Shown in pieces: positions 21,001 to 24,000 of a stretch of DNA of 64,000 nt. The DNA is taken from NCBI RefSeq assembly GCF_056712565.1, contig NZ_CM160072.1; one strand, given 5' to 3'. The first letter of the stretch is position 1. Each line of letters starts with the position of its first letter. Position numbers: made by a program.

Positions 21001-24000
21001 ACTTCATGCTGTAAACCAGTACAGCCACGGAAGGCATAACTCATTGCTTCCAGTTCGCCCGGTTCGCCGGGCATTTTTTAAAGGTGAGATTATGAACGAC
21101 CAGCAAATCGAAAAAGAAATCGTTGAGAAAGGCAAAACGGCACCGCGCGTTACGCCAGACCATATCGAAGGCATTATTGCTCAGGAGGCATATTTCACAG
21201 CAGAAGATGGTGCCTTTGGCAAAGCCATAAAAGCGAAACATACTGGCGGAGAGGTAAACTACCAGCCGCACGAATCACTTTCTCTGCTGACGTTCTGCGT
21301 CCTGGTGCTGCGCAACGGCTTCACCGTCACCGGAGAGAGCGCCTGTGCAAGCCCGGAAAACTTTGATGCGGAAATTGGTCGGGAGATTGCCCGGCAGAAT
21401 GCTGTAAACAAAATCTGGATGCTCGAAGGTTACTTGCTGAAGCAGAAGTTAAGCGAGCAATAACACCGTGACATGTCACAAACAGCCAGCCGATGAGCTG
21501 GCTTTGTTTTATCCTCACCAGAGGATATCAGCAGTATTATCCCCACCAGCGGATTAAGCATAAGGGTCATAATCCGTTATGGCCCTTCCCTGCTGGCTTT
21601 GCTGTCCAGGTATATTTATGCGTTTCGAGACCGGGAAAGCAAACGTCAGCAGTAGCGCATCGCCTTTACCCGGCGAACGCCCAAGCCGCTCCTTGATATC
21701 TTCCTTCGGTTCGATAACGATTTTACCGTCCACACGAACTTTGTACTCTGCCGCCGACAGGTCGTCTGCAGTTTCCTGGTCATCCAGCATGCCGCCGAGC
21801 CTCAGCCATGTCTTGCATGAGTTGAACATCTCCCCACGCTTGTTGAGCATCTGCGGGTCAGTAGACGCGCCACCGAACGGAACAAGTTGCCATGTACGTC
21901 CCCAGCCATCACCGATTGACTTCAAACCGGTTCCGTAACCGAAGTCGATGAACACCGCGTCAGCCTGATACTGGTCTTCAAAGTCAGCGATACGCTTCGC
22001 CATAATCAGATCGTCGGTAGTCTTGTTGCCAGTCCACAGCACCTTACTGTGTAGCCCCTGCCGCAGGTATATCACAGCGTCATCAACGCCGGAGTATGCC
22101 GGGTCAACGCCGATTATCACCGGAGCATGTGCAACCTGCGCAGCGGTTACCACCCGTTTCATTGCCTCGTCAGTAAGACCGGTAGGGATAAACTGCAATT
22201 CAGATGCATCAGGGAATATGCCACGCACACGGATTTTAACGAAGTCGCTGTCTTCCCCGTAGTCATCAACCCATTTCTGCAACTGCTGTTTGTTGGTACC
22301 TTCCACCGTCCGACTGTCAATCTGCGCAGTTTTCCAGCGGTGTTTATACTTGCGGAAACATTCACGGAAACGTCCGGTATTACGTGTAGGGTTTCCGAAC
22401 GCCACCCAAATAATCTCAGTGTCTTCGTCCGTAAGCGCACCCTCGGCAACTTCCCACACCAGATCCGCAATGTTCGACGCTTCATCAAACACCACGATGA
22501 TGCGTTTGCGCTCGTTGTGTAGTCCGGCGAATGCCTCGGTGTTGTGCTCAGACCAGGGTATTGCGTCAGCCCGCCACCGCTTGTCGTGCCCTAGGTCATT
22601 GCTGTACATCGCGGTAGCGGTACAGGTAAACCAGTCTTTCGTGATAGCAAGGTTCGACCACTTGATAATTTCCGGCCAGGTCTTCGTTCGTAGCTGGTTG
22701 TCGGTGTTGGCGGTCACCACGACCTTACAATCCTCGCAAGTGGACATGCCCCAGTTGATCAGCATTGAGATGAATGCGGATTTACCAATACCGTGACCAG
22801 AAGCGCGTGCCAGCATAAGCGGCTGATAGCGCGTCTCTGGATTCTGCAGGTGATCACGTATCTCTCGGAACGCATCAGCCTGCCACTGACGTGGGCCGGT
22901 GGCATGTGCCAGTTCAGTCCCCTCTTCCCCCCATGGGAACGCATAGAGGGCATAGCCAAGCGGATCGTGAGTGAACCCTGCAATATCCTCGATTAACTGC
23001 TCTTCAGGAGATAACGCTGTATCTGTCACTGATTGCCATCCTGACGTTCTTTCAGTCTCTTCCTGGCTGCCGCTATGCGATCAGCAATTGTCACATTCAC
23101 ATTAACATCCAGGCGTTCTTTGAATGCGTTGACGTCGACGTGCTTACCAATCAGTTCGAGGTTCTTCACCTTGTCAGGCCATTTAATTTTTTTGAGGATT
23201 GTCTCTATCGAATCCTCGTTCATGTTCATGATGGTCGATGACAGATCAAAGCCACTAAGCGTAGTGCGCCAGATTTTCGGCCACTCGCGGATTGGCTTAA
23301 GGCTCCCATCGTCGTTGAGGATGTCGATCACGTCCATCTGGTCGATCTCCACCAGGCGCATGAGAACGTAATCAGCACTGACGCGCATTCGTTTGTTGCG
23401 CTCCTCCATCAACTCGGCAATCCGTTTTTGAATGCGTTCATCGCGCATCATGACACTGGCTTTAACTGCCGCTGTATTTGGGGAGAATCCTGCGTTAATC
23501 GCTGCCTGAGTCTGGTTTTCAGGCGTTTTGATGTATGACTGGCAATAAGCCTCCTGCATTGCTGTTAGTGGCTTAAATTGCGTTGATTTGCGTTTATAGG
23601 TTTTAGGTTCAGCAGGCATCATAACCACCGTGGTAATAGTTACCGTTGTGGTAATAGTACCATGCAAAATAAAGCCGCCATAGTTGGCGGCAGTATTCAA
23701 AGTCCATCAAATTCATCGTAAAAACTCTCGTCAAGATACCCTTCCCATTTACCGCGAATGAAAATTACATCCTCGCCGCAAGGGTGCTGACTGTCGATAA
23801 CTATATCCCTCCTGGCGCAACCATACTTATGCATGAGAAATTTAACCTCTTTCGGAAAATTTGCTGAGTTATCTCTCATATCTTCAAGGTCGTAGCGTAT
23901 TTTTGGCATAACACCTTCGTGACATGTCACACTATTAATTTCGTTTCATGCCAGCCTTTGGTCACCCAGCATTGCGAGTCACCATTACACGGGCATGAAT

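What the first reader, a model, noticed from the sequence alone, without database searches (positions are those of the whole stretch)
21092..21463. Opposite-strand 123-aa moron protein of unknown function
It is the only protein gene in the tRNA cassette, with its own SD and terminator and inverted orientation. I have only a vague recollection that it may resemble a widespread small prophage protein family and cannot assign function. Its position fits a lysogeny-expressed accessory factor.
Basis: inference. Interest (0 to 1): 0.45.

Follow-up and report, generated by a model that had tools for sequence, protein, structure and literature searches.

The report
Prophage anti-CBASS sponge gene (Acb4 family)
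This small opposite-strand gene in an E. coli phiV10/epsilon15-like prophage belongs to the Acb4 family, phage proteins shown in 2024-2025 to soak up the cyclic-nucleotide alarm signals of the bacterial CBASS defence, so its function is no longer unknown and the find is ordinary.

Summary
The ORF is real: 21092-21463, + strand, 123 aa. It has an ATG start, a Shine-Dalgarno site and a downstream terminator, and it lies antisense between the large terminase and portal genes of a phiV10/epsilon15-like prophage integrated at guaA.

Ligand binding, tetramer formation and expression timing were not shown here.

- **What holds up of the "moron" reading:** the gene sits in a slot whose cargo differs between related phages.
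- **What does not:** "lysogeny-expressed" is not supported. The only upstream promoter candidate is overlapped by the phage's operator palindrome. The "tRNA cassette" is a single tRNA-Arg.

Side leads are a hypervariable, recombining 24-residue insertion where SPO1 Acb4 reads guanine, and an unexplained conserved hairpin directly before the ribosome-binding site.

The parts
21092..21463 (+). acb4 homologue (Gp49/Sf6 gp66 family, PF13876), 123 aa
21212..21283 (+). codons 41-64: hypervariable insertion between beta-strand 1 (aa 29-36) and beta-strand 2 (aa 66-73)
   Evidence: Column entropy is 2.2 bits or more for nearly every position (two columns are lower), against mostly 0.5 or less in the core. 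Mean pairwise identity is 0.26 in aa 37-62 against 0.87 in the core, across 121 close homologues. At the DNA level the gene is a mosaic with breakpoints near nt 60 and nt 210.
21081..21088 (+). Shine-Dalgarno sequence AAGGTGAG, 3-4 nt before the ATG
   Evidence: Read directly from the sequence. It is conserved in phiV10, epsilon15, SPN1S and phiv142-3 even where the cargo differs.
21057..21079 (+). conserved GC hairpin (GCCCGG-TTCG-CCGGGC) plus T run, directly upstream of the Shine-Dalgarno sequence; terminator-like, role unresolved
   Evidence: Terminator scan. Folding energy -12.7 kcal/mol. Two compensatory base-pair changes in epsilon15 and SPN1S (GCCCAC/GTGGGC).
20937..20972 (+). 14-bp hairpin plus T run after the tRNA (terminator-like)
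   Evidence: Folding energy -23.8 kcal/mol, z = -4.3.
21484..21503 (.). hairpin between the convergent acb4 and terL genes; terminator for acb4, and possibly two-way
   Evidence: It folds on both strands (-13.5 and -15.0 kcal/mol). The phiV10 RefSeq record annotates it as a rho-independent terminator.
20817..20893 (+). tRNA-Arg (anticodon UCU), same strand, upstream of the gene
   Evidence: ARAGORN. Rfam RF00005, 73.3 bits.
20496..20816 (+). conserved structured leader RNA between the promoter candidate and the tRNA
   Evidence: RNAalifold predicts 88 pairs, 14 of them with compensatory changes, including a 16-bp stem that closes at the tRNA 5' end. No Rfam match.
20459..20487 (+). promoter candidate TTGACA-N17-TACCTT for the leader/tRNA/(acb4) unit
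   Evidence: Read from the sequence. TTGAC and the -10/operator block are invariant in 7 Uetakeviruses. The consensus scan did NOT flag it, because the -10 hexamer matches only 3 of 6 positions.
20481..20495 (.). operator-like palindrome TTACC-N5-GGTAA overlapping the -10 hexamer
   Evidence: 17 sites in the window against 1.07 expected. They cluster on both sides of the HTH repressor gene 29020-29604. The epsilon15 RefSeq record annotates the equivalent site as 'repressor / lysogeny'.

Best explanation
The gene encodes an Acb4-family sponge. [quoted passage not shown] By analogy with SPO1 Acb4 and N4 Acb4, it should assemble into a homotetramer whose inter-subunit pockets bind cyclic dinucleotides made by host CBASS cyclases. 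The expected ligands are 3'3'-cGAMP and, for phages of Gram-negative hosts, c-di-AMP-type signals, but not c-di-GMP. Sequestering the signal keeps the CBASS effector off and lets the phage replicate.

Shown here: family membership by sequence and by fold, the prophage context, and the variable-slot context.

Inferred: the tetramer, the ligands and the anti-CBASS effect.

Expression is most likely tied to lytic development rather than lysogeny. The gene lies downstream of a promoter candidate that carries the phage operator, in one + strand unit with a structured leader and tRNA-Arg. How RNA polymerase gets past the two intervening terminator-like hairpins is not resolved.
For: Sequence:
- PF13876 at 118.9 bits against a cut-off of 27. 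That is as typical as N4 Gp49 (119.5 bits) and far above the crystallised founder SPO1 Acb4 (35.5 bits).
- 44% identity over 108 aa to N4 Acb4.
- 38% identity over 48 aa to SPO1 Acb4.

Fold:
- The AlphaFold2 model has pLDDT 94.7 and pTM 0.85.
- The top 13 Foldseek hits are all 9e4w chains.

Literature:
- PF13876 is the Acb4 family. All 8 purified homologues bound 3'3'-cGAMP, and those from Gram-negative phages also bound 3'3'-cAA (bioRxiv 10.1101/2024.12.30.630793).
- The phiV10, epsilon15, Sf6 and N4 proteins are in that paper's Table S3.
- N4 Acb4 is necessary and sufficient to trigger the sponge-sensing Panoptes system (PMC12657230).
- The Acb4 domain of Pseudomonas phage Ab09 gp59 is a tetramer and binds cGAMP and 2'3'-cAA (10.64898/2026.06.04.730250).

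Pocket: the base-stacking and hydrophobic contacts F48, F62 and I66 of SPO1 Acb4 are kept as F77, F91 and I95. Four of the nine mapped contact positions are identical to N4 Acb4 and three more are conservative.

Expression: the operator palindrome overlaps the -10 hexamer of the only conserved upstream promoter candidate.
Against: - No binding, oligomer or phage-challenge data exist for this protein or for its phiV10/epsilon15 orthologues.
- Only 3 of the 9 mapped SPO1 ligand-contact residues are identical. The guanine-reading residues differ: SPO1 E49 aligns with T78, and SPO1 K36 falls at the site of a 29-residue insertion.
- This allele has Glu at position 98, where 90% or more of relatives have Lys.
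- An AlphaFold2 run on four copies joined by Gly/Ser linkers gave pTM 0.42, which is uninformative.
- Two terminator-like hairpins, with no recognisable promoter between them and the gene, argue for low or conditional expression. That is awkward for a binder that works stoichiometrically.
- The promoter candidate falls below the consensus-scan threshold.
Confidence: 0.75

Rival explanations
1. Lysogeny-expressed moron. The gene would be transcribed from the repressed prophage and benefit the lysogen, for example by conferring a stress or phage-resistance phenotype.
For: - It is an accessory gene, inverted relative to the structural operon, with its own Shine-Dalgarno sequence and terminator.
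- The slot holds different cargo in related phages.
Against: - No promoter of its own was found between the upstream hairpins and the gene.
- The shared upstream promoter candidate is overlapped by the operator palindrome, which also flanks the repressor gene.
- The family's demonstrated activity is counter-defence on behalf of the phage. A constitutively made sponge would blunt the host's own CBASS and would trigger Panoptes-type systems.
- In lambdoid prophages the same gene sits inside the late operon, between the lysis genes and the terminase genes.
Confidence: 0.1
2. A sponge of the same fold that targets a different signal from the CBASS dinucleotides bound by SPO1 Acb4. Candidates are only 2'3'-c-di-AMP, cyclic trinucleotides, or a TIR-derived signal. 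Specificity would be set by the hypervariable insertion.
For: - The guanine-reading residues of SPO1 Acb4 (K36, E49) are not conserved.
- A hypervariable 24-residue segment emerges at the beta1-beta2 turn, the position of K36 in SPO1 Acb4.
- Homologues from Gram-negative phages have broader specificity.
- The Ab09 Acb4 domain binds 2'3'-cAA.
Against: - All eight tested homologues bound 3'3'-cGAMP.
- N4 Acb4, which also carries an insertion at this turn, behaves as a cyclic-dinucleotide sponge.
- The beta3-alpha4 loop that forms the pocket is nearly invariant in this clade.
Confidence: 0.15
3. An RNA-binding protein that uses its dsRBD-like fold. It would bind double-stranded or structured RNA, for example duplexes formed by convergent transcription across this locus, or the adjacent leader/tRNA, rather than nucleotide signals.
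For: - The clade consensus G-R-K-I-A-R at the start of the long helix fits the [KR]-X(1,3)-[KR] motif needed for dsRNA binding. SPO1 Acb4 has lost this motif. A 2026 preprint notes that some phage dsRBDs keep it (10.64898/2026.07.21.739742).
Against: - In this allele the central Lys of the motif is Glu (E98).
- The basic residues may equally serve to bind ligand phosphates, since the SPO1 pocket is strongly positive.
- In other phages the gene is not next to a tRNA or to antisense transcription.
Confidence: 0.06

Closest known systems
Bacillus phage SPO1 Acb4 (gp1.3; PDB 9e4w), founder of the Acb4 family
   Same: - Same Pfam family, PF13876.
- Conserved F, F, I and G-R residues of the pocket-forming beta3-alpha4 region.
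- Phage-encoded small protein.
   Different: - Only 38% identity over 48 aa.
- The window protein has a conserved 36-residue N-terminal module.
- It also has a 29-residue insertion (aa 37-65) in place of the tight beta1-beta2 turn that carries the guanine-reading K36.
- SPO1 positions E49, V56, Y57, T70 and K81 are T, C, A, I and M here.
- The host is Gram-negative, so c-di-AMP binding is expected to be tolerated.
Escherichia phage N4 Acb4 (Gp49, called gp48 in PMC12657230)
   Same: - 44% identity over 108 aa.
- Equal Pfam score.
- It also has an insertion between beta1 and beta2.
- Four of the nine mapped pocket positions are identical.
- It has been shown in E. coli to act as a signal sponge, necessary and sufficient for Panoptes activation.
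   Different: - N4 lacks the N-terminal 'IExEIxxKGxTAPRVTP' module and has a Cys-rich C-terminal tail.
- It is encoded in the anti-defence hot spot of a lytic phage, not in a temperate podovirus between terL and the portal gene.
phiV10 PhiV10p03, epsilon15 p50 and Sf6 gene 66 proteins
   Same: - These are orthologues, at 89%, 69% and 74% identity.
- phiV10 and epsilon15 carry the gene in the same slot and orientation, with the same upstream hairpin and Shine-Dalgarno sequence.
- All are listed as Acb4 homologues in Chang et al. Table S3.
   Different: - The window allele is a recombinant. Its first 60 nt are of the Sf6/lambdoid type (63% identity to phiV10), and the rest is 89-100% phiV10-like.
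- It carries K98E.
- epsilon15 lacks the tRNA.
- In lambdoid and P22-like prophages the gene is co-directional, inside the late operon.
Other phage signal sponges (Acb2, Tad1, Tad2, Sequestin)
   Same: They follow the same strategy: short proteins form homo-oligomers with ligand pockets at subunit interfaces. PF13876 domains are often fused to Tad2 or Sequestin domains, and many library relatives are longer fusion proteins.
   Different: The folds are unrelated. The window protein is a stand-alone single domain.

Membership tests
Acb4 / PF13876 (Phage_gp49_66) | Sequence match to the family profile above the curated threshold | tested here: met
   118.9 bits against a cut-off of 27, E = 1.4e-34, covering profile positions 1-82 of 82. 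SPO1 Acb4 itself scores 35.5 bits and N4 scores 119.5 bits.
Acb4 / PF13876 (Phage_gp49_66) | Three-stranded antiparallel sheet flanked by N-terminal helices and a long C-terminal helix (dsRBD-like), with Acb4 as the closest solved structure | tested here: met
Acb4 / PF13876 (Phage_gp49_66) | Homotetrameric pinwheel assembly | tested here: inconclusive
   Four copies joined by 25-residue Gly/Ser linkers, with a 12-row concatenated alignment, gave pTM 0.42 and mean pLDDT 62.6. The protomers fold, but the assembly is not resolved. The literature reports tetramers for SPO1 Acb4, for eight AlphaFold3-modelled homologues and for the Ab09 Acb4 domain.
Acb4 / PF13876 (Phage_gp49_66) | Ligand-contact residues of the cyclic-dinucleotide pocket (SPO1 K36, F48, E49, V56, Y57, F62, N63, I66, T70, K81) | tested here: inconclusive
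   The ungapped alignment of aa 67-114 with SPO1 aa 38-85 maps nine positions. F77, F91 and I95 are identical. D92 replaces N63, which makes a backbone contact. T78, C85, A86, I99 and M110 differ. K36 falls at the site of the insertion. Against the functional N4 Acb4, 4 of 9 positions are identical and 3 are conservative.
Acb4 / PF13876 (Phage_gp49_66) | Binds CBASS cyclic dinucleotides and rescues phage from CBASS | not testable with these tools
   This needs a gel-shift assay or ITC with purified protein, and plaque assays on CBASS-expressing hosts.
Acb4 / PF13876 (Phage_gp49_66) | Encoded by a phage or prophage | tested here: met
   The window to about 34910 is a phiV10-like prophage (95% identity to phiV10 across this locus). 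The att core ATTGAGTGGGAATGATT lies at 34894-34910, at the 3' end of guaA (PMC9782041).
Moron (independent accessory transcription unit of a prophage) | Present in some but absent from or replaced in closely related phages, inserted between conserved genes | tested here: met
   In the same slot TL-2011b has a 115-aa beta-rich protein, SPN1S has a 64-aa ORF, BUCT711 has a 263-aa transmembrane and coiled-coil protein, and phiv142-3 has nothing.
Moron (independent accessory transcription unit of a prophage) | Own promoter and own terminator | tested here: inconclusive
   A terminator is present at 21484-21503. No promoter-like site lies between the upstream hairpins and the Shine-Dalgarno sequence. 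The only conserved upstream candidate is 630 nt away and is shared with the tRNA.
Moron (independent accessory transcription unit of a prophage) | Expressed from the repressed prophage | not testable with these tools
   The sequence argues against it, because the operator palindrome overlaps the -10 hexamer of the candidate promoter. RNA-seq of lysogens is needed.
Canonical dsRNA-binding domain | [KR]-X(1,3)-[KR] motif at the N-terminal end of the second helix, and dsRNA binding | tested here: inconclusive

The most novel reading that the evidence does not exclude
The hypervariable segment (aa 41-64) is inserted at the beta1-beta2 turn, the position of the guanine-reading Lys36 in SPO1 Acb4. 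It may be an exchangeable specificity or evasion module. Prophages would swap it by recombination inside an otherwise nearly invariant gene. Swapping could retune which nucleotide signals are sequestered, or help the sponge escape host systems that detect sponges. The conserved hairpin/Shine-Dalgarno 'socket' downstream of the tRNA would then be a fixed expression site into which Uetakeviruses load alternative counter-defence cargo.
Probability: 0.2. Interest if true: 0.55.

Novelty: already known. Interest (0 to 1): 0.2.

Why it matters
For annotation, this gene and about a tenth of complete E. coli genomes (527 of 5,426) carry a "Gp49 family protein" or "hypothetical protein" label. These can now be read as probable anti-CBASS sponges (Acb4 family), which matters for predicting phage-host outcomes and for choosing therapeutic or reporter phages such as phiV10.

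The finding itself adds no new kind of system.

The modest added value lies in three points:
- The sequence argues against prophage (lysogenic) expression.
- The Uetakevirus terL-portal gap is a conserved slot with swappable cargo.
- Enterobacterial Acb4 alleles differ almost only in one recombining loop next to the predicted base-recognition site. This gives a concrete handle for testing how sponge specificity evolves.

Tried and rejected
- **Longer TTG start at 21044 (139 aa).** Rejected. It reads through the hairpin, and homologues and RefSeq use the ATG.
- **More tRNAs or a known RNA family in 20100-21700 and in three related loci.** Only tRNA-Arg was found.
- **NCBIfam and PADLOC profiles for the protein.** No hit. 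PHROG 322 is 'unknown function'.
- **PADLOC hits for the BUCT711 cargo protein.** These are low-scoring coiled-coil matches and were disregarded.
- **A promoter between the two upstream hairpins and the gene.** Manual reading and the consensus scan found none. The candidate hexamers are not conserved in epsilon15.
- **A sigma-70 promoter on the - strand upstream of the gp3/portal genes in the invariant block 20391-20458.** Nothing convincing.
- **Tetramer test using a linker-joined four-copy AlphaFold2 model.** Uninformative, pTM 0.42.
- **Identity of the eight homologues purified by Chang et al.** They appear only in figures, and Table S3 carries no flag. I therefore cannot say whether a close relative was tested.
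- **Second att site.** Only the guaA-proximal core is in the window. The prophage's left end lies beyond position 1.
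Full report
**The observation**

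The window holds an ORF at 21092-21463 on the + strand, with an ATG start and 123 codons plus a stop. It lies between two genes on the - strand. These are the portal gene (18490-20169, PF12236), preceded by a 68-aa gp3-like ORF, and the large terminase (21554-23029), with the small terminase behind it.

AAGGTGAG (21081-21088) sits 3-4 nt before the ATG. A hairpin with a T run follows the stop codon at 21484-21503. The longer TTG-initiated reading (21044) runs through a hairpin and is not used by any homologue or by RefSeq. The gene, its orientation, its ribosome-binding site and its terminator are therefore confirmed.

The 'tRNA cassette' is a single tRNA-Arg(UCU) at 20817-20893. It is the only tRNA in the 64-kb window.

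**Genomic setting**

The locus is 95% identical to Escherichia phage phiV10 and 98% identical to prophages in many bovine and human E. coli isolates. Window positions 1 to about 34910 are a Uetakevirus (epsilon15/phiV10-like) prophage. The integrase gene is at 33453-34703. The attachment core ATTGAGTGGGAATGATT is at 34894-34910, at the 3' end of guaA, as described for the related phage ZX5 (PMC9782041). The left end of the prophage lies outside the window.

**What the protein is**

- *Pfam.* The protein falls in PF13876 (Phage_gp49_66, 'N4 Gp49 / Sf6 gene 66') at 118.9 bits against a cut-off of 27, over the full profile.
- *Other libraries.* PHROGs (family 322) still lists the function as unknown. 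NCBIfam and PADLOC have nothing.
- *Solved structures.* A sequence search of the PDB returns one relative, 9e4w, 'anti-CBASS 4 (Acb4)' of Bacillus phage SPO1.
- *Literature.*
  - Chang et al. (bioRxiv 10.1101/2024.12.30.630793) identified SPO1 gp1.3 as a tetrameric sponge for 3'3'-cGAMP and related CBASS signals.
  - They assigned it to PF13876 and showed that all eight purified homologues bind 3'3'-cGAMP.
  - Homologues from phages of Gram-negative hosts also bind 3'3'-c-di-AMP, and none binds c-di-GMP.
  - Their Table S3 lists the phiV10, epsilon15, Sf6 and N4 proteins.
  - Later work uses PF13876 as the definition of Acb4 (10.1101/2025.07.12.664507).
  - N4 Acb4 is necessary and sufficient to trigger the sponge-sensing Panoptes system (PMC12657230).
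  - The Acb4 domain of Pseudomonas phage Ab09 gp59 is a tetramer that binds cGAMP and 2'3'-cAA (10.64898/2026.06.04.730250).

**Tests of membership run here**

- *Sequence.* The window protein is 44% identical to N4 Acb4 over 108 residues and 38% identical to SPO1 Acb4 over 48 residues. On the Pfam profile it scores like N4 (119.5 bits) and far above SPO1 Acb4 (35.5 bits).
- *Fold.* An AlphaFold2 model built from a 55-sequence alignment is confident (pLDDT 94.7, pTM 0.85). It has helices at 3-12 and 22-27, strand 29-36, helix 37-50, a loop, helix 61-65, strands 66-73 and 78-84, and a long helix at 93-122.
  - Foldseek against the PDB returns 13 chains of 9e4w as the top 13 hits, each with probability 1.00.
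- *Pocket.* The ungapped alignment maps nine of the SPO1 ligand contacts.
  - F48, F62 and I66 are kept as F77, F91 and I95.
  - N63, a backbone contact, is D92.
  - E49, V56, Y57, T70 and K81 are T78, C85, A86, I99 and M110.
  - Against N4 Acb4, four of the nine positions are identical and three are conservative.
  - This allele has Glu at position 98, where at least 90% of relatives have Lys.
- *Oligomer.* A four-copy, linker-joined AlphaFold2 run was uninformative, with pTM 0.42.
- *Function.* Ligand binding and CBASS rescue cannot be tested with these tools.

I therefore file the protein as an Acb4-family member by sequence and fold. Its mechanism is inferred from tested relatives.

**How it is probably expressed**

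The gene shares the + strand with the tRNA. Upstream, a block of about 105 nt (20391-20495) is almost invariant in seven Uetakeviruses from Escherichia, Salmonella and Klebsiella. It contains TTGACA (20459-20464), a 17-nt spacer and TACCTT (20482-20487). That is a perfect -35 hexamer with a weak -10, which the consensus scan did not flag.

The -10 hexamer is overlapped by the palindrome TTACC-N5-GGTAA (20481-20495).

- This palindrome occurs 17 times in the window (up to 1 mismatch) against 1.07 expected, and 15 of the 17 sites lie inside the prophage.
- Two pairs flank the 194-aa HTH repressor gene at 29020-29604.
- Several sites abut the -10 hexamer of scan-detected promoters: 2018-2046, 29696-29724, and 28919-28891 on the - strand.
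- The epsilon15 RefSeq record annotates the equivalent sites as 'repressor / lysogeny'.

This argues that the leader-tRNA-acb4 unit is shut off in the lysogen and released on infection or induction. That timing suits a counter-defence protein.

One problem remains. Two terminator-like hairpins lie between this promoter and the gene. The first is at 20937-20972 (-23.8 kcal/mol). The second is at 21057-21072 (-12.7 kcal/mol, followed by T6) and ends 8 nt before the Shine-Dalgarno sequence. I found no promoter between them and the gene.

The second hairpin is kept by two compensatory pair changes in epsilon15 and SPN1S, so it is functional. Whether it terminates, is read through, or marks an RNA-processing or stabilising site is unresolved.

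**Moron or not**

The slot is clearly a variable cargo site. The hairpin, T run, Shine-Dalgarno sequence and even the ATG are retained, but what follows differs:

| Phage | Cargo in the slot |
|---|---|
| this prophage, phiV10, epsilon15 | acb4 |
| TL-2011b | unrelated 115-aa beta-rich protein |
| SPN1S | a different small ORF |
| BUCT711 | 263-aa transmembrane and coiled-coil protein |
| phiv142-3 | a clean deletion that leaves an 8-codon stub |

In a lambdoid prophage the same gene lies co-directionally in the late operon, between the lysis/Rha genes and the terminase genes. The 'lysogeny-expressed' part does not.

**An unreported-looking feature**

Among 121 close homologues, residues 1-36 and 63-123 are nearly fixed, with mean pairwise identity of 0.71 and 0.87. 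Residues 41-64 are hypervariable in sequence and length. Identity over aa 37-62 is 0.26, there are 88 distinct variants of 5-31 residues, and column entropy is 2.2 bits or more for nearly every position (two columns are lower).

At the DNA level the window allele is a recombinant:

| Compared with | nt 1-60 | middle | nt 211-372 |
|---|---|---|---|
| another allele in the same Uetakevirus slot (CE0021a) | 90-100% | 20-50% across nt 121-210 | 96-100% |
| phiV10 | 63% | 89-100% from nt 61 onwards | 89-100% |

In the model this segment is an insertion between beta1 and beta2. SPO1 Acb4 has a tight turn there, carrying the guanine-reading Lys36. N4 Acb4 has an insertion there too, so an insertion is compatible with sponge function. 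The preprint text mentions only 'additional extensions' in some homologues. Whether the loop tunes specificity or helps evade sponge-sensing defences is speculation. I rate it at about 0.2.

**Rivals**

- A lysogeny-expressed host-benefit gene: 0.1.
- A sponge with a different ligand range: 0.15.
- An RNA-binding role through the dsRBD-like fold: 0.06. The clade consensus G-R-K-I-A-R fits the [KR]-X(1,3)-[KR] dsRNA-binding motif that SPO1 Acb4 lacks. Against this, the Acb4 match is far stronger than any dsRBD match, and this allele has E98.

**Novelty and score**

The exact protein is already public on at least 20 contigs as 'Gp49 family protein'. The gene is found in 527 of 5,426 complete E. 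coli genomes. Near-identical orthologues are listed in the Acb4 paper. The kind of system is known and the instance is unremarkable. Interest is 0.2.

Noticed in passing
window 1666, 2046, 3086, 20481, 23622, 23640, 26557, 26619, 28565, 28902, 28950, 29662, 29724, 34746 (15-nt sites): The palindrome TTACC-N5-GGTAA occurs 17 times in the window (up to 1 mismatch) against 1.07 expected, and 15 of the 17 sites lie inside the prophage. Sites flank the HTH repressor gene (29020-29604), precede terS and the left-end accessory genes (a BRO-N protein among them), and often abut predicted -10 hexamers. This looks like one repressor controlling many separate promoters. The epsilon15 record annotates such sites as repressor-binding.
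   Followed up: partly
window 20496-20816 (+): A roughly 320-nt leader lies between the promoter candidate and tRNA-Arg. It is conserved in Escherichia, Salmonella and Klebsiella Uetakeviruses and folds into a consensus structure of 88 pairs, 14 of them with compensatory changes. A 16-bp stem closes exactly at the tRNA 5' end. There is no Rfam match. The epsilon15 record marks an RNase III site in the equivalent region.
   Followed up: partly
window 21057-21079 (+): A GC hairpin with a T run sits directly upstream of the gene's Shine-Dalgarno sequence. It is conserved by compensatory changes, and it is retained in relatives whatever cargo follows. It is a terminator-like element in a place where it should block expression of the gene behind it.
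   Followed up: partly
L005 (phage phiv142-3) about 2560-2612; L003 (SPN1S) 3500-3850; L004 (TL-2011b) 2592-2939; L006 (BUCT711) 3512-4303: The slot between the tRNA and the end of terL carries different cargo in related phages. phiv142-3 keeps the Shine-Dalgarno sequence and the ATG followed by an 8-codon stub, apparently a clean deletion of an epsilon15-type acb4. None of the alternative cargo proteins has an informative Pfam or PADLOC match.
   Followed up: partly
window 21212-21283 (codons 41-64 of the gene): A hypervariable, recombining segment lies inside an otherwise nearly invariant gene, and the window allele is itself a mosaic of Sf6-type 5' end and phiV10-type remainder. There are 88 distinct variants among 121 close homologues.
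   Followed up: yes
window 21383-21385 (codon 98, GAG): This allele has Glu at position 98, where at least 90% of relatives have Lys. The position is in the G-R-K-I-A-R stretch at the start of the long helix, next to residues that align with SPO1 ligand contacts. The exact allele is seen on 20 public contigs.
   Followed up: partly
window 1626-1634, 20429-20437, 26577-26585 (+): The motif AACCACATA occurs three times against 0.37 expected, each time within about 50 nt of an operator palindrome. At 20429 it lies in the invariant block upstream of the gp3/portal genes. It may be a second regulatory site.
   Followed up: no
protein library hits P0121-P0270: Many 50%-cluster representatives of the family are 170-320 aa, with the Acb4 domain at either end. 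This is consistent with the published fusions of PF13876 to Tad2 and Sequestin domains.
   Followed up: no
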